Virus record (IMG/VR): IMGVR_UViG_3300045988_152778
Coordinates: 1-64,000 of that record
From: a virus
DNA: 64,000 bases
Strand: one strand, 5' to 3'
The notes beneath the pieces are model-generated. The model saw nothing but the letters and a program-made list of their open reading frames with translations, had not been told where the DNA came from and did not search any database. Shown here one piece after another: positions 2,521-14,053 of this stretch (its first letter is position 1; every line of letters begins with the position of its first letter). Position numbers and translations under genes: made by a program.

Positions 2521-3504
2521 TCAAAAGGCGACAAGCTTCGTCGCCGACTCAATGTTATAACCATCTTTATCGAGACACACATAAATACAGCCCTGCTGCT
2601 GAGAGTTAACCAACGCGCCGTCACCATATCTCATTTTCTGTGTCTCACACGCCGCACCCTGCTCATACATAGTGGTGTTTCCGATTTTATACGAACCGAG
2701 CCTGTGCGTATGCGCCATTACAAGGCAGTTGAAATCATACCCTTCATTGCGGAACCACAGCACAGCTTTCTCCGCCGTCTTCATAGGTGAACTGCTAAAA
2801 GCCTTCGGGTGAACAAACATTACATGACCTATCTGCGAAAACCACTCGCCAGTATAAACGACTTCGATATCATCGAATGTCTCACGAAGCGGCTCAAACC
2901 ACGTCTTAATATGATTGCGACGGTCGTAATGATAGAAGCCATCAACGAAGATGTAGTCCAGTGCCGTCTCAGGCATAAGCTCCTGAAGGTCTGAATCGAG
3001 GTGGTTGGCGAGATATGCTCCGAGGCGAAGCTCATGGTTGCCGTAGTTTGCGATGACCTTCTTCGGTTTTATGTAGTCAATAAGGTCTATAATGTACTGC
3101 CGACCCTCAACCAGTTCCTCGATACACGGTATGCGATACGACTTCGAGAATTTGGATATCGACTGACAATCAAATATATCTCCGTTGAGCTGTAGGATGT
3201 CTACACGCCCGACATACTTTGAAAATGTCTCTATAGGCTTTGCGAACGGGAAGTGCAGGTCTGATATAGACAGAACCCTCGTCGCCACGCCGCGCTCAGC
3301 TATCTCACGTTCATAGTTGCGACCGCGATTGAAAGCGGCAAATTCTTTTCGATAAGCACTCTCGCCGAGCGTCTGACCGCTTTCTGTATTGAGCAACTCG
3401 GCTATCTGGTCGCAAGTGAGACCATAAATTTTCTTGTTGTCGAAGAGCCGAACGAAGTAGTCAACATAGGACTCTCCGCTCTGCTTCTTAGCGAAGTCTT
3501 CCAT
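2521..3504 (-). CDS. Calcineurin-like metallophosphoesterase (327 aa)
   Basis: Metallophosphatase motifs D-x-H (SISDLHFP), GDIFD and GNHE (VIANYGNHELR), plus a later AHTH. Lies between the HU-like gene and the putative RNA polymerase. Confidence 0.75.
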   Translation of the reverse strand: MEDFAKKQSGESYVDYFVRLFDNKKIYGLTCDQIAELLNTESGQTLGESAYRKEFAAFNRGRNYEREIAERGVATRVLSISDLHFPFAKPIETFSKYVGRVDILQLNGDIFDCQSISKFSKSYRIPCIEELVEGRQYIIDLIDYIKPKKVIANYGNHELRLGAYLANHLDSDLQELMPETALDYIFVDGFYHYDRRNHIKTWFEPLRETFDDIEVVYTGEWFSQIGHVMFVHPKAFSSSPMKTAEKAVLWFRNEGYDFNCLVMAHTHRLGSYKIGNTTMYEQGAACETQKMRYGDGALVNSQQQGCIYVCLDKDGYNIESATKLVAF

Positions 3505-3511
3505 CAGCGGC

Positions 3512-3691
3512 TCACCTCCACGGTTCGTGGCGAAGCTTCTTTAGGTAGCGCATCACCTTAAAGCCCTCGGTGCAGTAGTATGTTTTCTTTCGACTGGGAG
3601 CGTAGCGGTTCGTTACCGTTATATGCGTTCCCGGAAACTTCTTTCTAATCTTAAAAGCTTCCTCCTGCGAGATTTTAACTATATAAACCAT
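3512..3691 (-). CDS. Small basic hypothetical protein (59 aa)
   Basis: ATG with an adjacent AAAAAGGAA. Translation MVYIVKISQEEAFKIRKKFPGTHITVTNRYAPSRKKTYYCTEGFKVMRYLKKLRHEPWR. Fills the gap between the 893-aa gene and the phosphoesterase. Confidence 0.35.
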   Translation of the reverse strand: MVYIVKISQEEAFKIRKKFPGTHITVTNRYAPSRKKTYYCTEGFKVMRYLKKLRHEPWR

Positions 3692-3858: not shown

Positions 3859-6540
3859 TTACGCGAAATATTTATATCGAGTGTATCTCTTTCCATATAG
3901 CTCAACATCACCCTCGTCGTCTTCTGCGAGCAGTCCGATAGGTTCTGCACCCGCTTCGAGAACCTCATAGAACGAGGTGTTGGGGTAGCCAAAGAGTATG
4001 TTAAATATCTTACGCTGAATCTGAGAATAACGAGGTTCTTCTATCTGGCGCAGGAGGTAGACCATATCGCTCTTGGTGAACGACATATTGCCCACATACT
4101 CTACGCACTCCTGCCTGATATCACAACACTGCATCTGTTTGACGGAAGATTCTATGTCCGAAGCATACACACTCTTTATCTCATTTGTCATGTCTGTTAC
4201 GGCATTGATGACGCGGATGACTTTCTCGTACTGTCTACGATGAACATCTATGCCGTTACCCACAAGAGCAGAGAAGGGAAGATACTCCTGCTTCTTTCCT
4301 ATCTCTTCTCTCTGAGCCCTGTACGAGTTAATACAAGTCTGCACATGATCCATGGTCGTCAAATGCTTCTTGTAATTCTTTCGCTTGCGGTCATAGTAAC
4401 CTTTGCCGATATCCTTCGCCTTGAAGAAGTTAGGTTTAATGGCTCTTCCGTCGTCGCCCTCAATCTTATATTTATCACGCAGTCGGCGAAGCTCCTTAGC
4501 ATTATTGATATTGAACTCTTTCTTTGCCTTGTCGATTTCAATGCCGCTCATAATATTCAAGATACATACATCTTTATATATTTCCTCAATATCACTATAA
4601 CTGCCGCCACGATTGAGGACATCCCATATGCGGGTATTGAGCTCCTGACTGAGGTTGATGATATCGCCTATAAGATTGTTGCTCGTTTTAACATCAAGGT
4701 CAACCTGCTCGTCGTGAGTATATCTGCGTTTTTTCTTAACGGACGAGACATCCGGAACTGCTATCAAAAACTTACCTTCGTTCTTAAGCGCGGCATTGAT
4801 AAGGTGAAGATTATCCGTAACAAGCGAGGTATCTGAATCAAAATCGCAGCCCGATAATTCGTTTAAGACATTTTCGCCAATACTGTTTATACAGACTATC
4901 TCGTTCGTCAGATTAAAGTAGCGGTCGATCTCGCTACACTCCACATTCGTCGGAACCCACACATTGCTCATTGAGATATGGGGGCTGCGCGAACCTACGA
5001 GCCTCTGCCCATACCCGAACCTCTTCGTATGTATGTTGCCAACACCCAGCACCGACACGCCGTCGAACTTGCCGATGCTCGCCTGTAACATCTCGATTGG
5101 ATTGCCAAACAAGGTTTCGTAATTACCCTCGACAAGCACATGACCGAGCCTAAGATTTTTTGTAAAAGACTTAAGAATATCTATCTTGAAGTCATGATAA
5201 AGCTTCGTCTGCGCAAATCTGTCATTGAGACCGAGAAGCTTATATACAACATCATTCTTCGACTCGGCAGGGGAGATATCAAATTCGTCTTCTATCGGAT
5301 ATTTGATATGGTAGCGCAGAACTGCGGGGTCTGTTCTGATAGCTGTCATATAGTCAAATGTCTCCTTAAGGAACGCCGCCGTCTCAGCCTTGTCCATCTG
5401 CAAGCTGTTGAGAAGCTGATAGTGCGTCTGCACCATGCGTCCATCAAAGAAGTGAGTTGGCTTATCATACTTAACAACGCCAAAAGTATTGTCGATGTGC
5501 TTCATCCAATCGTTTATCGTCCCGAACTTCAGATACTTGATGCTGCTCGGCGTGGTTACTATCTTTATATCTTCCACACGCTTCGCTTTAGTGTAGCCCT
5601 TTAGCTGGCTTACCTCTGTTATGCCGTGGTCGGCAAACCACTGCTGCAAGTTTGTATTGAAGCAACAGCATTTAAAGAAGAGGTTGCGGAGTAGTATCAT
5701 GCCCTTATCGCTGTATTTGCCCATAGCTGATATATCTATAAGCCCCTGTCCGTCCCAGATAGAGTTGGTTATCTGCTCGTCTTTTTCTTCGGCGATTAGG
5801 TGGTCGCCATCTTCGCTGACGGACATAACCTTATCGAAGAATTTGCTCTCGTAGTCGTCTATCACGAGAATGTTCTCGGGGTTTATTTCCAGTATATCAA
5901 TAATAGAGCTTGACGGCAGAGAGATATACGACTCAAGCGCAGCAAGGTCTACCTCCTCACCCTCGGCGACTTTCAGTCCACACATCTCCCACTTGTGCAT
6001 ACGAGCATACAGCTTCTCGTCAATAAAGAGACACTTGCCAACGCGAGAACTGCCGCTTGACCTCTTCCACCTGACATACCTTACTCCATTACACACAAAG
6101 CCGTCATTATACAGTGTCCTGCGCAGCTCCGCTGTGCTCTTCAGCGTCTTAGGTGTTTTGATAAGCGTGTATACGCCACCTTCAAAACCGAAGTATTTAC
6201 CGAGCACCTCGTCAGATACCGGATATTCCACAGGCTGTCCAAGTATTATTCCCACCAGCTCGCCGTCTTTTATAGCCACGCAGTCATTGAAGTTAAGGTC
6301 TGAGTCTTTATGTCCAAAGCGAATATACCTATTTCTGCCGGCTTTATTAAACTCCGCCACCGAGTATTTAAAGGTTACATTTATTACGCGCGAGGTATAC
6401 TCTTTCTTTCTTCCGTAAAAACTGAAGTTAGTGCGGCGGTACACTTTCTCATAAACCTCGCGCAGTTTTATCTGATCTAAACTGTAATCGAGTGTGTTGG
6501 CATATCGTCTATAATTGACCTTGCCGTCTTTATCCACCAA
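3859..6540 (-). CDS. Large (893 aa) protein; candidate YonO-like single-chain two-barrel RNA polymerase
   Basis: No Walker motifs. Contains RSPHISMSNVWVP...(about 35 aa)...CDFDSDTSLV. This resembles the beta-prime double-psi-beta-barrel segment RQPSLHRMSIQAFEP...NADFDGDQMAVH of multisubunit RNA polymerases and the DxDGD motif of YonO/QDE-1-type polymerases. An HU-like gene is adjacent, as yonN is to yonO in Bacillus prophage SPbeta. The assignment rests on motif resemblance only. Confidence 0.45.
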   Translation of the reverse strand: MVDKDGKVNYRRYANTLDYSLDQIKLREVYEKVYRRTNFSFYGRKKEYTSRVINVTFKYSVAEFNKAGRNRYIRFGHKDSDLNFNDCVAIKDGELVGIILGQPVEYPVSDEVLGKYFGFEGGVYTLIKTPKTLKSTAELRRTLYNDGFVCNGVRYVRWKRSSGSSRVGKCLFIDEKLYARMHKWEMCGLKVAEGEEVDLAALESYISLPSSSIIDILEINPENILVIDDYESKFFDKVMSVSEDGDHLIAEEKDEQITNSIWDGQGLIDISAMGKYSDKGMILLRNLFFKCCCFNTNLQQWFADHGITEVSQLKGYTKAKRVEDIKIVTTPSSIKYLKFGTINDWMKHIDNTFGVVKYDKPTHFFDGRMVQTHYQLLNSLQMDKAETAAFLKETFDYMTAIRTDPAVLRYHIKYPIEDEFDISPAESKNDVVYKLLGLNDRFAQTKLYHDFKIDILKSFTKNLRLGHVLVEGNYETLFGNPIEMLQASIGKFDGVSVLGVGNIHTKRFGYGQRLVGSRSPHISMSNVWVPTNVECSEIDRYFNLTNEIVCINSIGENVLNELSGCDFDSDTSLVTDNLHLINAALKNEGKFLIAVPDVSSVKKKRRYTHDEQVDLDVKTSNNLIGDIINLSQELNTRIWDVLNRGGSYSDIEEIYKDVCILNIMSGIEIDKAKKEFNINNAKELRRLRDKYKIEGDDGRAIKPNFFKAKDIGKGYYDRKRKNYKKHLTTMDHVQTCINSYRAQREEIGKKQEYLPFSALVGNGIDVHRRQYEKVIRVINAVTDMTNEIKSVYASDIESSVKQMQCCDIRQECVEYVGNMSFTKSDMVYLLRQIEEPRYSQIQRKIFNILFGYPNTSFYEVLEAGAEPIGLLAEDDEGDVELYGKRYTRYKYFA

Positions 6541-6940
6541 CGAATAACCTGCGTCGGGGTATAGCTCATTTGTTATGTATATATCCTTAGCGTCGATACC
6601 CGGTATATATATTGTATTACCTATAGTTAATTCTCCTCATCCATATCCGTATTTATGGCTTGATTTCCATAGTCTATGTAAGCGACCTCATCCCAACTGC
6701 CGTGGCAGGGGTAGTCGTTGTCGTCGTTGCCGCAGCAGTTAATCCACGGGCAACCCTCACAAAATCCTCTGTTCAACTTCTTTGTTTAATCCTTTCTTTA
6801 AAATGCCGTTCACACCTTTCCTTATATCAGCCATATCTCATTTCGTCCGAGTTTTGCTGTCTATATATTACAAACTTCGGTTTAAAGTGTCCCGGTAGGG
6901 TAGTTTATGCCCCGAGTTTCAATGTTTTATTTTTATGTAT

Positions 6941-8699: not shown

Positions 8700-9002
8700 T
8701 CACTTCTCCGCTCTGTACTTCGCTAACGCCGCCGTCGCCTTGCGTTTCTGTTCTTCGGAAATGCTTCGAGCGGCGTTCTTTCTTATAGTAACTGCGGAAG
8801 GGATAGCCTTTAGAATCATCCCGCACACAGTGCCGTCGTCGTAAACCGTCTGCTCTATAGGAGTCCAACCCTTACGCAGCGCGGCATTGAAGTCTTTCGG
8901 AACGGTGCTGTCCATTACCCAGCCGTCGCCACTTCTATATATGTGCGTCTCTCGCTCACTCACAGATATCTTACTCGTAATCGTCTTCGTCTTTATCGCC
9001 AT
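8700..9002 (-). CDS. Hypothetical protein (100 aa)
   Basis: ORF MAIKTKTITSKISVSERETHIYRSGDGWVMDSTVPKDFNAALRKGWTPIEQ...; overlaps the upstream gene end by about 30 nt. Confidence 0.4.
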   Translation of the reverse strand: MAIKTKTITSKISVSERETHIYRSGDGWVMDSTVPKDFNAALRKGWTPIEQTVYDDGTVCGMILKAIPSAVTIRKNAARSISEEQKRKATAALAKYRAEK

Positions 9003-10233
9003 TCTGAACCCTCTCCATCCAATCTTTTAAAAGTGTCCTCATTCTTCTGCTCGGCACATACAGCCATATCTCTTCTCCGCGTCTTATAGCCGATCTCCAT
9101 ATCCACTGCAACATAGTTGAAAGAGCGTACATATCTTGGTCTACCTCTACACCAAATTTCTCATACACACGCCTCTCCGCGACATTCATAAACAGGTTAA
9201 CGGCGTAGGCAAGATACCTCTTATTAATGTATGAATTAGTAGCCCTCTCGTTGAAGACGACGTAACTCTTGGTGTAACCTTTGCCCTTAACCTTGTTACA
9301 GGCGCTCTTATAGGTTCCCCACATACGCTCGTCCGCAGGTGAGTTCTTCCATATATGCTTGTAGCAGTTGGCTATATGATTCTTAACAGCCTTGAGCTCG
9401 CCATCCTCACCAGCCTTGCGTCTCTGATACCAATTCATAGACAGCGCATGGGGCGGGTCGCCTATACGGTTGAGCTTTGGCGACTCTACTATATGTATAA
9501 GGTCTTTGATGTGCTTGGTGTATTCCGGCACATAATCGGTATTATCCGAAAAACGGTAACCCCCGTCCTTTAGCGACACACCTATATATGTATAGGGGAT
9601 TTTATAAATCTTCATAAAATAGCAAAGCGCCTGTCCGGTAAACAAATACGTCAGCACGAACACCTCATCGAACGAGGTCAACAGCTCCTGCGGCAGAGCC
9701 CAGTAATAAAGCTTCTGCCCCTTTTGTCCATCAACACACAAAATATCGCGGGAGCGGAACATCTTCATCTCGTCCTCAAATTTACCTGAGTCGTACAGCT
9801 TGTCTGTCGCCCGATATGTCGTGCCGTCTGATTCTAAAAAGCCTGTAGCGACAAGCCCGCCGACATCATTGGTCTTCATTTGACTCTCGATAAGAATATC
9901 CAAGCTCTCGTCTATGATGAGGGTATAGCCAAGCTCTCTAATCATCGCCAGCGTATCACGGTTATAATTTCTGAAAGCCGCGTGGGTTGTCGTTATGTTG
10001 CGCCCCTCGCTTATAAGAGCTGCTGTGTGCTCTGTCTTTCTGAAATGGTATTCGCTCAGCTTGTTGCTCGGCTCGACGAAGTGCAGCTCCGGGCAACCCT
10101 CTTTGATACGATTGCTCTCCGCCAGATACGGCGTGATGTAAATGAATTTCTTCTCCTTGTGTTCGTTCATATAGGTAATGGCAGCTTCGGTTTTGCCGGT
10201 ACCCATAATCGCATCACATACTTTGACTTTGAT
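8971..10233 (-). CDS. P-loop NTPase of unknown function; probable non-AUG (ATC) start 27 nt upstream of the first ATG
   Basis: The first ATG gives MGTGKTEAA, which splits a Walker A. The in-frame upstream codons give ...AIMGTGKT = [AG]x4GK[ST]. A perfect AGGAGG lies 8 nt upstream of an in-frame ATC (10231..10233), with no ATG/GTG/TTG between. Walker B LIIDESLD is present. Confidence 0.55.
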   Translation of the reverse strand: MKVKVCDAIMGTGKTEAAITYMNEHKEKKFIYITPYLAESNRIKEGCPELHFVEPSNKLSEYHFRKTEHTAALISEGRNITTTHAAFRNYNRDTLAMIRELGYTLIIDESLDILIESQMKTNDVGGLVATGFLESDGTTYRATDKLYDSGKFEDEMKMFRSRDILCVDGQKGQKLYYWALPQELLTSFDEVFVLTYLFTGQALCYFMKIYKIPYTYIGVSLKDGGYRFSDNTDYVPEYTKHIKDLIHIVESPKLNRIGDPPHALSMNWYQRRKAGEDGELKAVKNHIANCYKHIWKNSPADERMWGTYKSACNKVKGKGYTKSYVVFNERATNSYINKRYLAYAVNLFMNVAERRVYEKFGVEVDQDMYALSTMLQWIWRSAIRRGEEIWLYVPSRRMRTLLKDWMERVQNGDKDEDDYE

Positions 10234-10339
10234 AGTGTTTTCCTCCTATTTTGAACTTATTTTTTTAAAATGGTTCCAAACTGGCTCACAGCCCTTGTGT
10301 ATCAAGGCATCTGAGCACCCCCTCTCTTAAAAAACAATT

Positions 10340-10700
10340 TTGTGTTATGTGAAGGTCACAAGTCCACTAACGTGTCCTTGCTCGCCACATAATTCCGCCT
10401 ACGGAGTAGGCGGGAGGCTACGCTATACCACCTCGGGAGAAGTTCTCTTCGCAAGCTTCGCTAACTTCTCTTCGGAGATACCGCTGACGCCTCCCTCAAA
10501 CATCTCCGTAGGCGGGTGGAAGGCTTCGCCTTATTTCTAAAGGAAGACTGCATCCTCGGTTCGCTCCATCTTGAGGCGAACTCAGCAAGCCTTTAACTGC
10601 GCTGCGCTCCGTTTCCGTTCGCCTTATTAGTGTCGCTCACCTCGGATTTGCCTTGAAACGGCTTACGCCGTAGCCTGTACCACCATGTTATGTATATACC
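10340..10700. ncRNA. GC-rich highly structured non-coding segment; candidate structured RNA of unknown class
   Basis: No credible ORF. Local hairpin CCGCCTAC-GGA-GTAGGCGG (10388..10406), whose 5' arm can instead pair with CTCCGTAGGCGG at 10504..10515. Long-range closing pair GGCTACG (10406..10412) / CGTAGCC (10667..10673). Internal direct repeat TTCTCTTCG x2. Strand not determined. Confidence 0.3.
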
Positions 10701-10797
10701 TTACACCCGAGGTTAGCCGATTTACCAAAATCTGAAGGTTAAATTTATGAATAAATTATTAACAGAAGTAGAGGGTAGAAGCTTGGCGCGTAGCGAT

Positions 10798-10831
10798 AAA
10801 CATAAATAAAAAAAACGCGCCCTTCGGCGCG
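10798..10831 (-). terminator. Rho-independent terminator for minus-strand transcription
   Basis: Minus-strand read gives CGCGCC-GAAG-GGCGCG followed by TTTTTTTTATTTATG (perfect 6-bp GC stem, tetraloop, U-tract). Confidence 0.7.
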
Positions 10832-11310
10832 TAAGACGATCGTATACATATAGAACTTGTAGAAGCTTTCTTCGAAGACGTCAGCCTGTTATAGGCTTAT
10901 ACCACGAACGAAAGACCGCTCGTAAGGTAGACTTTAGGGATTTTAGCCTGTACCACATCTTTATCTCGGATGCTCGTAGGGGTAACTTTGTGCGTAGAGC
11001 GGGCTTTTACCAGTTTTTTTAAAATTTTAAAAAGCACCAATCTACCTGACCCGTAGAAGATACCCTCCACTATGGGCGGGATTTGTGTAGTTCTGAGGGT
11101 CTATTTTGACGACGTGTGAGTGGGGTTGATTAACTAAGCGGTTTTTCACGATTATTTTTCTGCTATATGTTTAAAATAGCCCCCGTGGGGCTATAAATCC
11201 ATAAAGGCGTATTTTATGGATTATTATACCTATATAGTCGAGGTATACAAGCTATGATATTTTAGTGTTATATAAGCATTATTTTTTTGTTGTATTTACA
11301 ACGCCGTCTA

Positions 11311-11355
11311 CACGTCAACGTCAACACTGCATAATATCACCGTCAACACGTCAAT
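11311..11355. repeat. Iteron-like direct repeats (GTCAAC/GTCAAT x4)
   Basis: cACGTCAACGTCAACActg...ccGTCAACACGTCAATtac, beside a TTGTATTTACAA palindrome in an AT-rich tract. Confidence 0.5.
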
Positions 11356-11380
11356 TACATCTTATATGCTAAAATAAAAA

Positions 11381-11421
11381 AATACCTATACATCAAAAAG
11401 ATAAATTCCGTGTGTATAGGT
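11381..11421. promoter_or_regulatory. 12-bp perfect inverted repeat AATACCTATACA-N17-TGTATAGGTATT (candidate operator); a third TATAGGTAGGTA copy follows at 11428..11439
   Basis: Read directly from sequence. A dyad-symmetric site typical of dimeric repressor/regulator binding. Confidence 0.45.
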
Positions 11422-11543
11422 ATTATATTATATATTATATAGGTAGGTATATATCCTATAATGTCGGGACGGCTACACCGTCCCCATCGGCGGCACTTGT
11501 GCCGCCTAATAGACGCGCGAACATCTATTATTCTGCGCAAGAA

Positions 11544-11894
11544 TTATTTATCGTTGATTGGTAGGCGTAGAACGGCGCGGAGTGCATCGGGGGATATATG
11601 CGCGGCAGCGGCTACTACTGACACCGCCGTGTTCAGGTCAGGCGGCTCAGGTTCAGGGGTCGGGCGTTCGAGTAGAGCGTCTATAGATATATTTAAATAA
11701 TCGCATATACGGGCAAGCGTGATATAAGACGGCGCGCCGCCGTGCGTCATTTTAGTTAAAGCAGCATGATTGATGTTTAATTCTTGTAACATAGTTTTTA
11801 CCGTGATATTTTGTCTCGTGCATTCTTTTTTAATCTTTTCTGCAATAATAGTGGGGTCATAATTGTTAGTATTGCACAAGTTCATCAGCTCCAT
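11544..11894 (-). CDS. XRE/CI-like helix-turn-helix transcriptional repressor
   Basis: 116 aa. HTH_3-type segment ITVKTMLQELNINHAALTKMTHGGAPSYITLARICDYLNISIDALLE. Minus strand, divergent from the plus-strand early region; the usual lysogeny-switch position. Confidence 0.8.
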   Translation of the reverse strand: MELMNLCNTNNYDPTIIAEKIKKECTRQNITVKTMLQELNINHAALTKMTHGGAPSYITLARICDYLNISIDALLERPTPEPEPPDLNTAVSVVAAAAHISPDALRAVLRLPINDK

Positions 11895-11968
11895 TGCATA
11901 GGCTTATTGTGTATATGTTACGAAGATGTGTAAAATCTCTAAAAAGTTCATTATTTTTCTTTTTCGAG

Positions 11969-11997
11969 TATAACAATGCACTTTTTGGTGCTATAAT
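11969..11997 (+). promoter_or_regulatory. Candidate early (lytic) promoter with extended -10 (TGcTATAAT)
   Basis: TATAAT at 11992..11997 with TG at -15/-14 and ATAACA at -35 (16-nt spacer). Divergent from the repressor gene. The first convincing plus-strand gene starts about 900 nt downstream. Confidence 0.45.
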
Positions 11998-12009
11998 GTG
12001 CTTGCACTT

Positions 12010-12095
12010 GAGGGACAAGCCCCACGGACAAGCCGCCGACAACGAGCCGTTGAGCCGTGCGGACAAGGCGCGCGGGGTAAGCCCCAACAAGTACG
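12010..12095. repeat. Degenerate 9-11-mer direct repeats (GGACAAGCC / CGACAACGAGCC / GGACAAGGCGC / CCCAACAAG)
   Basis: GGGACAAGCCCCACGGACAAGCCGCCGACAACGAGCCGTTGAGCCGTGCGGACAAGGCGCGCGGGGTAAGCCCCAACAAG, immediately downstream of the candidate early promoter. Confidence 0.5.
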
Positions 12096-12913
12096 CAATA
12101 TATAAAATTATACACCAATGCCGCAAAAAGTCAAGCGGCGAAGGGCTTGCCCATAACAACAAGAAAGAGGGTGATTAATTTTTGCGCGGTTAGTCGGCTT
12201 TTAGCGGATTAATACGCGACAAGCGGAACACATAAATATTATTGTATGTCCTTGCAATACTTTGATATTGCTATCACGCTATGACGGCTTTATAGCTATC
12301 AGCCCGGGACGGCGCGCGCCGTTGCGCGTTTATCGTATGCAATAATATTGTAAAATATCGGTAACGGCGGCGGGACACTCTCATCCGTTACTATGCCGCA
12401 TAGGGGCGCTATGCGGGGCGAATAAAGGCATTTTATCACAAGTCCGTAAAAGGTCAAAGAAATAACTGCCATTTAAGCGGGTGTATTATCTGTTTAAATA
12501 CTTTGATTTTGTTGTGCTAAAGTGGAGAGTCCGGGGACGGTTGGAAGCCGTCCGAACCTTTTGAGTTCCTTTGCCGTTGGTGCTTGATATATACGCGATA
12601 AGTATATCGGCAATAAGAAAAAAATAAACCGTGCATTAATGCTATATTGATATTTTAGCTTTACACCGCCCGCGCTATTTCTCAGGAGATACGGACAACG
12701 GACGGTAATTTTTATTTTTAGGAATAAATATTTATTGTAAAGCGGGGATGTTAATGTTTCATTTTTGGAAAATGCACGGTGACGGGTAACAATTGATACG
12801 TTGGTACAATAGGACATTTTAACACATTCCGAGCGCGTGAGCTGTTATATGTTCGCGCGTTCTTTAATGTGCTAAAAGCATATAAAATATTTAAATAAGG
12901 ACGGTAAAAAATC

Positions 12914-14053
12914 ATGAAAAAGACAACAGAAAAGAAAGCATTACGGAATATTACGGAAATTAAAGCAGAGCTTGAAACACGCGCTAACGCCTACAACGCG
13001 GCAATAAATGCCGACGATACAAAGGCGGCAGAGCTCGAAAAGCTCGACAATGAAACATCAGAGCTTGAAAAAGAGTATGCCCGCGCCGCGTTTCATGCAA
13101 CGGCTCTCGAACTGCTCGACAACCCCGCGCCTATGCTTGCGGCGGCGACGGCTCTAACTTTCGAGACGCTGAAACACAAAGATAAAGAGGACGAAAACGG
13201 CATAAAATCGCGTGAACTCGTCGCGGCTGAACGCCCGCTTGATTTTGTCGCACTTGAATCATTCTTTGTCGAGCGCGGAAAGAAATTCGGCGCGGAATCT
13301 GCATGGGTTTACAAAGTCGCGGCTTTTAATCGTTTACTCTGCATGAGAACGGCGCAAAGTATCGGCGCGGATGTGAAAACAGTCGCGGAAAAGTTCGCTA
13401 CACCTACACAAGCCCGCGATATCAATCTCGGCAAAACTCCGACAAGCAACACACAATTACTCAAGCAATTACAGATGATAATTGACTCCATGCTTTATGT
13501 AGAGGGCGAAAAGGGCAATATCTATAAAGCAAATTCGCATGATGTCGGATATCTGTTATCCCTCTACGCGAAGAAGGGGCGCGGCGTTCTGAGTGTTGCC
13601 GCGGCACGCCCGAAGTATCTTGAAAAGCTCATAGCGGAAATACTTCACCGCATAGTCACCGAAAAGTCCTATAATATCGAGTTCAAGGAAAAGAAAGACC
13701 GCGCAAGCGGCAAGATAGATCCTAAACCCGCCGGGGCTGTTGAATCCGCGAGAAAATCCGCGAAAAAATCGAGCGCAAAGGCTCAGACGGAAATTGAACG
13801 CGCAAGACGCGCCGCCGATAAAGTTCGCAAAAAAGCAAAGGCGGAGGCGAAAAAAATTCAAGCTGAGAACGGCGGCGCGTCTGTAGCTGCGCCGTGGCTG
13901 CTCGACGCGATGCGTAAACTCGCCGAAGAGAAAAAAGCCGGAAAAATCACGGACGAAGAATTTAATAAATATCTTGAGTACGCCGAAAATAGAGACATCG
14001 AGGAAGGCGGCATAGGATTCTACGGTGTAAACAGCGAGGAAGAATCCGCATAA
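12914..14053 (+). CDS. Hypothetical early protein (379 aa); Ala/Lys-rich charged C-terminal region
   Basis: Long ORF with RBS AAGGACGG-N9-ATG. No recognisable catalytic motifs. Confidence 0.6.
   Translation: MKKTTEKKALRNITEIKAELETRANAYNAAINADDTKAAELEKLDNETSELEKEYARAAFHATALELLDNPAPMLAAATALTFETLKHKDKEDENGIKSRELVAAERPLDFVALESFFVERGKKFGAESAWVYKVAAFNRLLCMRTAQSIGADVKTVAEKFATPTQARDINLGKTPTSNTQLLKQLQMIIDSMLYVEGEKGNIYKANSHDVGYLLSLYAKKGRGVLSVAAARPKYLEKLIAEILHRIVTEKSYNIEFKEKKDRASGKIDPKPAGAVESARKSAKKSSAKAQTEIERARRAADKVRKKAKAEAKKIQAENGGASVAAPWLLDAMRKLAEEKKAGKITDEEFNKYLEYAENRDIEEGGIGFYGVNSEEESA

What the first reader, a model, noticed from the sequence alone, without database searches (positions are those of the whole stretch)
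10340..10700. About 360-nt GC-rich, ORF-free segment with mutually exclusive helices: candidate structured RNA
Against an AT-moderate background this segment is packed with GC hairpins. The 5' arm of CCGCCTAC-GGA-GTAGGCGG (10388..10406) can instead pair with CTCCGTAGGCGG about 100 nt downstream (10504..10515). A GGCTACG/CGTAGCC pair (10406/10667) could close the whole domain. Alternative pairings like this are typical of riboswitch/attenuator or large-ncRNA architectures. Large ornate RNAs (GOLLD, ROOL) are known to reside in Firmicutes prophages. I cannot match this segment to a named class.
Basis: seen in the sequence. Interest (0 to 1): 0.6.

Follow-up and report, generated by a model that had tools for sequence, protein, structure and literature searches.

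The report
Structured leader RNA before phage helicase

Summary
The segment is real. It is ORF-free in practice, lies in the 99th GC percentile of the window, and contains a perfect 12-bp long-range inverted repeat.

The structure belongs to the minus strand. It folds into three domains: D1 10684-10516, D2 10515-10395, D3 10392-10345.
- RNA-energy z-score is -4.9 on the minus strand and -2.8 on the plus strand.
- The alignment-based fold scores -124 against -94 kcal/mol.
- In a 90-pair model, 12 pairs carry compensatory double changes, against 4.4±1.6 in shuffles.
- Almost all of that covariation comes from one divergent lineage (L026/L145), so support is moderate.

In all 65 related loci with enough downstream sequence, the element lies about 110 nt upstream, on the same strand, of a YonV-like gene with an SF2-helicase fold. 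The phages are SPβ-like and carry a YonO-type RNA polymerase. I found the element only in human-gut phages whose YonV is at least 72% identical.

There is no Rfam match (GOLLD, ROOL, T-box and riboswitches included). Covariance models found nothing in 142 more distant loci.

The proposed riboswitch-like switch and the domain-closing GGCTACG/CGTAGCC helix are not supported. My best reading is a long cis-acting 5' leader of the early helicase/antirepressor operon. That reading is inferred, not shown.

The parts
10516..10684 (-). Domain 1. A multi-branched long hairpin: ACGGC-GUAA-GCCGU hairpin, stacked helices AAGGC/GYCUU, AUCC/GGAU, GGU/ACC and AGGCGAAC/GUUCGCCU, an invariant apical loop GGAAACGRAGCGNAGCGNAGUUNAAGG, and an AAGGC-GAA-GCCUU mini-hairpin.
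   Evidence: Folds. Pair counts, helices 1-5: 98-100% paired. Pairs 81-146 and 82-145 change on both sides. Pair 62-166 is seen as G-U, G-C and A-U. The tandem G.A pairs of the window are replaced by Watson-Crick pairs in L026 (read from the alignment).
10395..10515 (-). Domain 2. A long hairpin closed by the 12-bp helix CCGCCUACGGAG/CUCCGUAGGCGG. Inside are GGGAGGC/GCCUCCC, GUAUC/GGUAU and GAGAAGUU/AACUUCUC helices. The apical loop is made of GCGNAG pentamer repeats. The domain is dispensable: it is deleted in at least 6 natural variants.
   Evidence: I10. helices 6-9: 5 pairs with both-sided changes. The deletion between the direct repeats GTAGGCGGGAGG/GTAGGCGGGTGG (D10) is seen in L031, L230, L233, L236, L242 and L244.
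10345..10392 (-). Domain 3. A hairpin with a conserved internal loop (GCGAG / GUGACCUU) and a GUUA loop. The outer stem is UUAUGUG/CACAUAA. The inner stem contains tandem G.A pairs.
   Evidence: The inner stem is replaced wholesale by a fully complementary version in L002, L026 and L145, and a third version occurs in L142. The outer stem has 2 both-sided changes in the counted model (helices 10-11).
10686..10712 (-). Conserved motif GGGTGTAAGGTATATACATAACA immediately 5' of domain 1. It is a possible promoter or transcription-start region, or alternatively the 5' strand of a closing helix with GCCUUCCACC (10524-10515).
   Evidence: Conserved in the window type and, as TGGTGTATGGTATAGAT, in L026/L145 and, as GGGTGTAAGATAT, in L143. 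A near-copy (AAGGATATATACATAACA; 16 of 18 bases identical to the window's own copy) sits at 6588-6571 just upstream of the 893-aa gene. No sigma-70 consensus was found. The role is inferred.
10234..10344 (-). Variable linker with a short U-run (10331-10326), a conserved hairpin (10316-10284), and the ribosome-binding site AGGAGG (10247-10242).
   Evidence: Sequence. Conservation falls to 82% in 10201-10300. The hairpin is conserved across the window, L026 and L143.
8971..10233 (-). The downstream gene, YonV-like (Pfam PF27199 YonV_C), with an SF2-helicase-like fold. The probable start is the non-canonical ATC at 10233-10231. The first ATG is at 10206.
   Evidence: Pfam labels. AlphaFold model with pLDDT 77; Foldseek best hits are XPD, DinG, PriA and DEAD-box helicases, E 9e-6 and TM about 0.4. 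The homolog consensus begins MxKVCDAIMGTGK. The ATC is conserved 8 nt after AGGAGG in the aligned window-type loci and has a counterpart at a slightly shifted position in L026.
10808..11208 (-). Upstream conserved non-coding block B. It ends in a strong intrinsic terminator (10832-10815 plus a U-run) and is inherited together with block A and the gene.
   Evidence: Conservation is 97-99% at 10801-11100. Terminator. Fold z is only -1.2. A recombination junction lies at about 11208 in at least 16 loci.

Best explanation
The segment encodes a structured RNA of about 340 nt on the minus strand, made of three helical domains. It forms the bulk of a long (about 450 nt) 5' leader of an early-operon transcript. 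That operon begins with a YonV-like SF2 helicase gene, followed by a 100-aa protein and Bro/Ant antirepressor genes, in an SPβ-like temperate phage of human-gut Clostridia.

Inferred mechanism: transcription starts downstream of the terminator at 10832-10815, near the conserved GGTGTAAGGTATATACATAACA motif. The leader folds into D1-D3. Through its invariant single-stranded loops and CU-rich segments (CUUCCUU, CCUUCC, CCUCCC, all complementary to the Shine-Dalgarno AGGAGG) it sets the stability or translation of the downstream helicase message. A protein partner is likely, possibly the helicase itself acting in feedback.

Shown here: the conserved structure, the strand, the fixed linkage to the gene, and the restricted distribution.
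Inferred only: that the segment is transcribed as part of the yonV mRNA, and how it regulates.

The confidence of 0.5 is for this cis-leader reading. That the segment is a conserved structured RNA of some kind on the minus strand I put at about 0.7.
For: Thermodynamics:
- RNA z-score -4.94 for 10340-10700 on the minus strand and -5.0 for the whole leader 10190-10700.
- Plus strand -2.76.
- With DNA energy parameters the two strands do not differ (-2.82 and -2.64).

Strand:
- RNAalifold gives -123.8 on the minus strand and -93.9 kcal/mol on the plus strand.
- Single-sequence MFE differs by 19-25 kcal/mol in the window, L026 and L145.
- The G-U and tandem G.A pairs only work on the minus strand.

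Covariation:
- RNAalifold finds 13 of 103 pairs with both-sided changes.
- The hand-specified 90-pair model has 96.5% of cells paired and 12 pairs with double changes, against 4.4±1.6 in shuffles (0/500) and 0-1 in slid controls.
- With the structure predicted from the window alone, L026 keeps 22 of 38 changed pairs (null 15.3±2.8, P=0.012). L145 gives P=0.0007.

Linkage: in all 65 loci with enough downstream sequence, the yonV-like gene follows on the same strand at a fixed distance.

Not coding.

Conservation: 99.2-99.7% over 10401-10700, while the adjacent gene drops to 80-90% and the linker to 82%.

Transcript boundaries: a strong terminator lies upstream, and no canonical terminator separates block A from the ribosome-binding site. 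Both fit read-through into the gene.
Against: - No transcript data, and no recognisable sigma-70 promoter.
- Nearly all covariation comes from one divergent lineage (L026/L145) plus two small events (the L002 hairpin swap; L004/L023). The number of independent events is therefore small.
- Among 41 window-type variants, single-base changes do not avoid or compensate in stems (about 9 keep the pair and 13 break it).
- Some coding stretches of the same operon (8701-9200) are equally conserved (96-99%), so recent recombination could explain part of the conservation.
- Domain 2 is deleted in several natural variants, and L143 carries only about 130 nt of leader. Much of the structure is therefore not essential.
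- YonV relatives at 50% identity or less have no such element.
- No ligand, protein partner or switch was identified.
Confidence: 0.5

Rival explanations
1. A stand-alone, trans-acting non-coding RNA. Possible roles include a protein sponge, a scaffold, or an immunity or anti-defence RNA. It would be made from its own promoter and end after domain 3 at the weak U-run (10331-10326), and would merely neighbour the helicase gene.
For: - The structured core stops at 10345 and is followed by A-rich sequence and then UUGUUUUUU.
- The linker beyond it is the least conserved part (82%).
- The invariant loops carry period-5 NAG-NN repeats. This is significant in L026/L145 (15-17 against about 4.7±1.9, 0/500 shuffles). 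The repeat number varies between lineages, which would suit an oligomeric RNA-binding protein.
- The core is more conserved than the gene next to it.
Against: - The U-run lies about 8 nt from the stem, so it is not a canonical intrinsic terminator (one search finds none).
- In the window itself the repeat periodicity is not significant (6 against 3.6; 63/500).
- No complementary target above chance was found in the 64-kb window.
- The candidate neighbouring 100-aa protein has no TRAP-like or HutP-like fold, nor any other known RNA-binding fold.
- The element is never found detached from yonV.
Confidence: 0.22
2. A DNA-level element rather than an RNA. It would be a single-stranded-DNA structure, such as a priming or helicase-loading signal or a replication origin next to the helicase gene. 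Its GC-GNA-GC mini-hairpins and long hairpins would form when the minus strand is unwound.
For: - The downstream protein has an SF2 helicase fold whose best matches include PriA, XPD and DinG, which are DNA helicases.
- GCGNAGC motifs are enriched on this strand: 4-8 per 1.5 kb, against 0.17 per kb in distant loci.
- From my own knowledge, d(GCGAAGC) forms unusually stable DNA mini-hairpins and occurs in ssDNA phage origins.
- Compensatory changes also preserve hairpins in ssDNA.
- With DNA parameters the fold is still better than shuffles (z -2.8).
Against: - With DNA parameters the two strands are equivalent (-2.82 and -2.64), whereas the strand asymmetry appears only with RNA energies.
- There are no iterons or AT-rich unwinding region inside the element.
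- YonV relatives elsewhere lack it.
- Its orientation and position fit a transcribed leader.
Confidence: 0.1
3. No dedicated function. The segment would be a promoter/operator-rich intergenic spacer whose high identity reflects recent recombination of a mosaic module, and whose hairpins come from local duplications of GC-rich repeats.
For: - Mosaic conservation, with a sharp junction at about 11208 and equally conserved coding stretches.
- Internal direct repeats, and a deletion between them.
- Window-type polymorphisms show no selection for pairing.
- Hairpin modules are gained and lost between lineages.
Against: - L026/L145 are only 70-77% identical in sequence yet keep the helices, with 12 double compensatory changes against 4.4 expected and 0-1 in slid controls.
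- Two whole-stem replacements keep perfect complementarity and the loop.
- z = -4.9 on one strand only.
Confidence: 0.1
4. A riboswitch or transcription attenuator that switches between the local hairpin CCGCCUAC-UCC-GUAGGCGG and the long-range 12-bp helix.
For: - Both pairings are perfect in the window.
- The L004/L023 changes weaken the long-range helix more than the local one (pairs 214-329 and 215-328).
- The natural deletion variants retain exactly the local hairpin.
Against: - The only double compensatory change (C-G to A-U in L026/L145) supports the long-range helix alone and creates a C.U mismatch in the local hairpin.
- Most window-type sequences carry an A that mismatches in both helices.
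- Neither alternative is followed by a U-tract terminator or overlaps the ribosome-binding site.
- No known aptamer matches.
Confidence: 0.06

Closest known systems
Long structured 5' leaders of bacterial and phage operons (protein-binding or self-regulating leaders, such as those described for helicase genes rho and deaD/csdA)
   Same: Same-strand position directly upstream of a helicase-like gene. Several hundred nucleotides of conserved helices. CU-rich segments complementary to the Shine-Dalgarno sequence. No terminator between the element and the gene.
   Different: No homology to any of them. Feedback by the helicase is pure inference. The promoter and the 5' end are unknown. That rho and deaD have such leaders is from my own knowledge.
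Orphan phage-associated RNA motifs found by comparative genomics (Weinberg et al. 2017, PMC5737381), for example DUF3800-VIII RNA, which hits the 1.7-kb ORF-free yonN-yonK gap of SPβ
   Same: A clade-restricted structured RNA in a large ORF-free gap of an SPβ-like phage that carries a YonO-type RNA polymerase. SPβ also has an unannotated ncRNA at the start of its YonO-dependent operon (PMC5467207).
   Different: No sequence or covariance-model similarity to the SPβ region. Different position in the genome: upstream of yonV here, upstream of yonK in SPβ. No Rfam hit.
GOLLD and ROOL large ornate RNAs
   Same: Found in prophages of Firmicutes. Multi-domain. Function unknown.
   Different: No Rfam match to either model. 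At about 340 nt it is smaller than those RNAs as I recall them. It is tied to one gene rather than standing free.
Phage RNA-based immunity regions (P4 CI RNA with seqA/seqC; P1/P7 c4 RNA upstream of icd-ant)
   Same: A structured RNA in the leader of an early operon that contains an antirepressor gene. One sequence (GUAGGCGG) is complementary to two upstream copies of CCGCCUAC.
   Different: Covariation shows that the complementarity forms an intramolecular helix closing domain 2. No target near the ribosome-binding site of yonV or ant was found. The sequence is nearly identical across phages, unlike immunity determinants. The P4 and P1 features are from my own knowledge.
TRAP-type (G/U)AG-repeat leaders
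   Same: NAG triplets separated by 2-nt spacers in loops. The period-5 pattern is significant in L026/L145.
   Different: Only 3-5 consecutive repeats, against 9-11 for TRAP (from my own knowledge). The spacers are conserved CG. The pattern is not significant in the window. No TRAP-like protein was found nearby.

Membership tests
Any Rfam 15 family (including GOLLD, ROOL, T-box, riboswitch classes, DUF3800 motifs) | A covariance-model score at or above the family's gathering threshold | tested here: not met
   Whole window at gathering thresholds: only the tRNA-Asn. E<=10 search of 10100-13000: nothing coherent inside 10340-10700 except a 19-bit PhotoRC-I fragment (gathering score 45). The L026 homolog gives no block A hit.
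Riboswitch / transcription attenuator | Mutually exclusive helices, one of which is a terminator (stem plus U-tract) or sequesters the ribosome-binding site | tested here: not met
   The alternative pairings exist. Neither is followed by a U-tract or overlaps the ribosome-binding site. Covariation supports only the long-range helix.
Riboswitch / transcription attenuator | A conserved ligand-binding core shared with a known aptamer class | tested here: not met
   No Rfam aptamer model matches. A novel aptamer cannot be excluded with these tools.
Structured non-coding RNA (generic) | Secondary structure conserved through compensatory substitutions, on one strand | tested here: met
   12 of 90 pairs have double changes, against 4.4±1.6 in shuffles and 0-1 in slid controls. 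P=0.012 and 0.0007 with a structure derived from the window only. Minus-strand energy advantage. Caveat: few independent lineages.
Structured non-coding RNA (generic) | The region is transcribed | not testable with these tools
   No expression data are available. Promoter scans are uninformative.
Terminator-delimited small RNA gene | Its own promoter, and an intrinsic terminator at the 3' end | tested here: not met
   No terminator-like site on the minus strand between 10700 and 10207. The only one is upstream, at 10832-10815.
TRAP-like NAG-repeat binding site | About 9-11 (G/U)AG triplets with 2-3-nt spacers (number from my own knowledge) | tested here: not met
   The longest run is 3 in the window, 4 in L026 and 5 in L145. 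Periodicity in the window is not significant.
Antisense immunity RNA of P4/P1 type | RNA loops complementary to target sites at or before the regulated gene's translation start | tested here: inconclusive
   Internal complementarity is present but behaves as an intramolecular helix. No complementarity above chance elsewhere in the window.
Single-strand DNA initiation signal / replication origin | Functions as ssDNA hairpins recognised by a primase or helicase; origin activity | not testable with these tools
   Only indirect data: DNA-parameter z is -2.8 on both strands, and the neighbouring protein has a helicase fold.

The most novel reading that the evidence does not exclude
The element is a previously undescribed RNA class that works together with the YonV-like SF2 helicase, possibly also with the co-inherited 100-aa protein. 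It would be the helicase's dedicated RNA substrate, sensor or scaffold in SPβ-like phages that bring their own YonO-type RNA polymerase. The period-5 NAG-CG loop repeats would be the protein-binding code. In that case the RNA is a functional partner of a phage ribonucleoprotein, not merely a leader.
Probability: 0.12. Interest if true: 0.7.

Novelty: new member of a known kind. Interest (0 to 1): 0.42.

Why it matters
If the RNA is real, it adds a new, fairly large structured RNA to the small set known from temperate phages of gut Clostridia. The lineage is common in human-gut metagenomes: 48 metagenome contigs and 28 viral-contig stretches carry it.

Its fixed linkage to a helicase of unknown role (YonV, conserved from SPβ to gut phages), in front of antirepressor genes, gives a concrete handle on how the early operon of YonO-polymerase phages is controlled.

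It also supplies a defined test case for RNA-helicase feedback or leader-mediated control in phages. There are three domains, natural deletion variants and natural stem swaps to work with.

It is not a new principle. Orphan structured leaders are found regularly.

Tried and rejected
- Rfam at gathering and at E<=10, on the window and on the divergent homolog: no family.
- tRNA/tmRNA scan: only the tRNA-Asn attachment site.
- BLAST of the region against the phage and plasmid collections: no match.
- nhmmer profile of the whole leader against YonV loci of about 50% identity: only the gene start matches.
- Covariance models of D3 (R1) and D1 (R2) against 142 distant YonV/RdRP loci, including SPβ: no hit, apart from a truncated D3 in L142, which belongs to the same clade.
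- Looking for the element next to distant homologs of the 100-aa protein (L280, L281): AT-rich gaps with no similar element.
- Antisense-target search within the 64-kb window: only chance-level matches.
- TRAP/HutP-like binding protein: the 100-aa neighbour has no significant fold match.
- Protein-coding remnant: rejected on codon-position pattern and indels.
- Polymorphism test for selection on pairing among 41 near-identical variants: uninformative.
- Block B as a second structured RNA: z is only -1.2.
- Sigma-70 promoter scan: nothing on the minus strand.
- G-run/R-loop idea for GGGGG at 10322-10318: dropped, because L143 has CCCCC there.

Full report
**Setting.** The window is a prophage integrated next to a tRNA-Asn gene (93-168). 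A tyrosine integrase lies at 253-1407 on the minus strand.

The finding lies inside a 1.3-kb stretch with no ORF of 100 aa or more (10207-11543). On the minus strand the order of features is:
- a Cro/CI-type HTH gene (11894-11544);
- an AT-rich region with TTGACG repeats;
- a conserved block B (about 11100-10840), ending in a strong intrinsic terminator (10832-10815 plus a U-run);
- the segment in question, block A (10700-10340);
- a variable linker, a conserved hairpin (10316-10284), and the ribosome-binding site AGGAGG (10247-10242);
- a 411-aa P-loop gene (to 8971), an overlapping 100-aa gene, Bro-N/ANT antirepressor genes, DUF551, and an 893-aa protein (6540-3859).

**The neighbouring proteins.** The 411-aa protein carries Pfam PF27199 (YonV_C) in the precomputed tables. 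It is 35-37% identical to YonV of SPβ and phi3T. Its AlphaFold model (pLDDT 77) is closest to SF2 helicases (XPD, DinG, PriA, DEAD-box). The best E-value is 9e-6 and TM is only about 0.4, so the family is certain but the substrate is not.

The 893-aa protein has distant phage relatives annotated as RNA-dependent RNA polymerase. Other phages that carry the 100-aa family also carry a PF05183 (RdRP) gene, though I did not test its homology to the 893-aa protein. The 893-aa protein is therefore probably YonO-like. This looks like an SPβ-like gut phage with its own single-subunit RNA polymerase.

**Checking the observation.**
- GC content is 0.526 against 0.438 for the window, the 99.4th percentile.
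- The hairpin CCGCCTAC-GGA-GTAGGCGG is at 10395-10413, 7 nt from the stated coordinates.
- The 12-nt perfect complement is at 10504-10515, as stated.
- GGCTACG and CGTAGCC are at 10416 and 10669. A 7-mer pair of this kind is expected by chance.
- A mechanical 66-aa ORF on the plus strand is not coding. Substitutions against L026 fall 9/19/15 by codon position, and the two lineages differ by many indels.

**Which strand.**
- As RNA, the minus strand folds at -140.9 kcal/mol, z = -4.94 (0/100 shuffles).
- The plus strand folds at -116.8 kcal/mol, z = -2.76.
- The alignment-based fold gives -123.8 against -93.9 kcal/mol.
- All three lineages tested show a 19-25 kcal/mol advantage for the minus strand.
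- The G-U pairs and the tandem G.A pairs only make sense on the minus strand.
- With DNA energy parameters the asymmetry disappears (z -2.82 and -2.64). This mildly favours RNA over single-stranded DNA.

**Relatives.**
- A peptide-pattern scan with the YonV-like protein gave 25 viral contigs. Most of the longer ones are 85-95 kb.
- An exact DNA pattern from the D1 loop gave 28 viral and 48 metagenome stretches, mostly labelled human gut.
- All of these are 94-100% identical to the window in block A.
- Averaged over 24 loci, 10401-10700 is 99.2-99.7% identical. The linker 10201-10300 is 82%, and parts of the helicase gene are 80-90%. The stretch 8701-9200 is also 96-99%, so mosaic recombination contributes to this conservation.
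- Protein look-ups produced the divergent versions: L026 and L145 (70-77% DNA identity in the leader), L142 (only D3 lies on the contig), and L143 (a leader of about 130 nt between the same flanking motifs).
- At least six contigs carry a clean 102-nt deletion of domain 2 between the direct repeats CCCGCCTAC.

**Structure.** RNAalifold on 14 sequences predicts three domains and 103 pairs, 13 of them with both-sided changes.

I then fixed a 90-pair model by hand and counted:
- 96.5% of cells are paired;
- 12 pairs have double changes, against 4.4±1.6 in shuffles (0/500);
- the slid controls give 0-1.

To avoid circularity I also predicted the structure from the window alone and scored it on the divergent lineage. 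L026 keeps 22 of 38 changed pairs, 12 of them changed on both sides (null 15.3±2.8, P=0.012). L145 gives P=0.0007, but it is not independent of L026.

The most convincing individual events:
- The inner stem of D3 is replaced by a different, fully complementary sequence, with the GUUA loop and the flanking internal loop unchanged, in L002, L026 and L145. L142 has a third version.
- The outer stem of D3 has two both-sided changes in the counted model.
- In D2, GGGAGGC/GCCUCCC changes G-C to A-U at two different positions in two different lineages.
- In D2, the GUAUC/GGUAU helix is rebuilt as GGAACC/GGUUCU.
- In D1, the tandem G.A pairs of the window are Watson-Crick pairs in L026.

Weak points:
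- Nearly all of the covariation rests on one deep split.
- Among 41 near-identical variants, single-base changes break pairs about as often as they keep them.

The 12-bp long-range helix is real and closes domain 2. In L026/L145 a C-G pair becomes A-U there, and that same change puts a C.U mismatch into the local hairpin. Most window-type sequences carry an A that mismatches in both helices. L004/L023 weaken the long-range helix slightly more than the local one.

No terminator and no ribosome-binding site is involved in either alternative. I therefore see no evidence for a switch, though I cannot exclude one. The GGCTACG/CGTAGCC closing helix is refuted, because its 5' half is absent in L026/L145.

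**Linkage and range.** In every locus with enough downstream sequence (65 of 65), the yonV-like gene follows on the same strand at a fixed distance. One further contig (L238) is a remnant truncated 65 nt into the gene. Upstream, homology to the window ends sharply at about 11208 in at least 16 loci. Some loci have a MobA/MobL relaxase region upstream instead of the HTH gene. Blocks B and A, yonV and the 100-aa gene therefore travel as one module.

The following show no sequence-profile or covariance-model match:
- YonV relatives at 53% identity or less (viral contigs);
- 79 species-representative genomes, mostly Clostridia, with some Bacillus;
- SPβ itself.

GCGNAGC motifs are also not enriched in these distant loci.

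**What it is, and how it may work.** The most economical reading is a structured 5' leader of the early helicase/antirepressor operon.
- An upstream terminator isolates it.
- A conserved motif sits at its 5' edge. A near-copy lies just upstream of the 893-aa polymerase-like gene, which suggests a shared promoter or start element.
- No terminator separates it from the gene.

The leader contains three invariant CU-rich segments complementary to the Shine-Dalgarno sequence. In the full-length minimum-energy fold one of them (UCUUCCU, about 10547-10541) pairs with AGGAGGA. That complementarity is generic, and I treat it as a lead only.

The invariant apical loops of D1 and D2 consist of NAG-NN pentamer repeats. 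The period-5 signal is strong in L026/L145 (15-17 against about 4.7±1.9, 0/500 shuffles) but not in the window (6 against 3.6). This hints at a protein partner. The co-inherited 100-aa protein gave no informative fold match.

Feedback by the helicase on its own leader is an attractive idea, but it is inference.

**Rivals, in order.**
1. A stand-alone RNA that ends after D3.
2. A single-stranded-DNA signal for the helicase.
3. A functionless mosaic spacer.
4. The riboswitch/attenuator reading.

**Comparison with known systems.** The element is not a member of any Rfam family. It resembles orphan phage-associated motifs such as those of Weinberg et al. 2017 (PMC5737381).

SPβ also has a 1.7-kb ORF-free gap, between yonN and yonK. 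That gap holds an Rfam DUF3800-VIII hit, and the YonO-dependent start site there lies upstream of an 'unannotated non-coding RNA' (PMC5467207). That region is unrelated in sequence and in position.

**Verdict.** Covariation support is moderate and the function is unproven.

Noticed in passing
window 10231-10248 (minus strand): The yonV-like gene probably starts at a non-canonical ATC (10233-10231), 8 nt after AGGAGG and right after an in-frame TAG. The first ATG (10206) would cut off the beta-strand before the Walker A motif. Homologs begin MxKVCDAIMGTGK, and the ATC is conserved in the aligned window-type loci, with a counterpart at a slightly shifted position in L026.
   Followed up: partly
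window 6571-6588 and 10686-10703 (minus strand): An 18-mer, TAAGGTATATACATAACA at the 5' edge of the structured element and AAGGATATATACATAACA upstream of the 893-aa gene, is nearly repeated (16 of 18 bases identical; the run TATATACATAACA is shared exactly). The second copy lies about 30 nt upstream of that YonO-like polymerase gene. It may be a shared promoter or start signal of unknown type, with no sigma-70 -35 box.
   Followed up: partly
window 3859-6540 (minus strand): An 893-aa protein with no Pfam or NCBIfam hit in the local libraries contains a CDFDSDT motif. It is distantly similar to phage proteins annotated as RNA-dependent RNA polymerase, so it is probably a YonO-type single-subunit RNA polymerase.
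   Followed up: partly
window 10808-11208 (minus strand): A second highly conserved non-coding block (97-99% identical at 10801-11100) ends in a strong terminator (10832-10815). It shares a 13-nt repeat, GTGGTACAGGCTA, with block A (10956-10944 and 10683-10671), and it contains several CTACGAG-like motifs. The overall fold is not better than shuffles (z -1.2). The window lacks a hairpin of about 20-30 nt that most relatives have near 10890.
   Followed up: partly
window 11300-11356: Five closely spaced TTGACG repeats (as read on the minus strand) lie next to the Cro/CI-type HTH gene (11544-11894). They look like operators or overlapping -35 boxes.
   Followed up: no
window about 11208; loci L030-L033: A sharp recombination junction. 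In at least 16 related contigs, homology to the window stops at about 11208. In some, a MobA/MobL relaxase, DUF3847 and TetR region replaces the HTH side. Many metagenome contigs also break about 1.0-1.1 kb upstream of yonV.
   Followed up: partly
window 10406-10519; loci L031, L230, L233, L236, L242, L244: A natural 102-nt deletion of domain 2 lies exactly between the direct repeats GTAGGCGGGAGG and GTAGGCGGGTGG. It leaves the local hairpin CCGCCUAC-UCC-GUAGGCGG.
   Followed up: yes
window 8700-9002 (minus strand): A 100-aa gene overlaps the stop of yonV. Its family is tiny (about 90 proteins in 5.8 billion) and has invariant ERETH and DGxVC motifs. It also occurs in RdRP-carrying phages without YonV (L280, L281). 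The model is confident (pLDDT 82) but has no known fold match.
   Followed up: partly
L279 (SPβ NC_001884) 873-2555 and 1130-1195: SPβ has a 1.7-kb ORF-free gap between yonN and yonK, with an Rfam DUF3800-VIII RNA hit. This is the region where the YonO-dependent late transcript is reported to start upstream of an unannotated ncRNA.
   Followed up: no
L026 about 3485-3499 and 3640-3659; L145 about 735-749 and 890-914: Tandem pentamer repeats of the form NAG-CG, for example UAG CG UAG CG AAG CG GAG CG UAG in L145. They occupy the apical loops of D1 and D2, the variable base comes every fifth position, and the copy number differs between lineages.
   Followed up: partly
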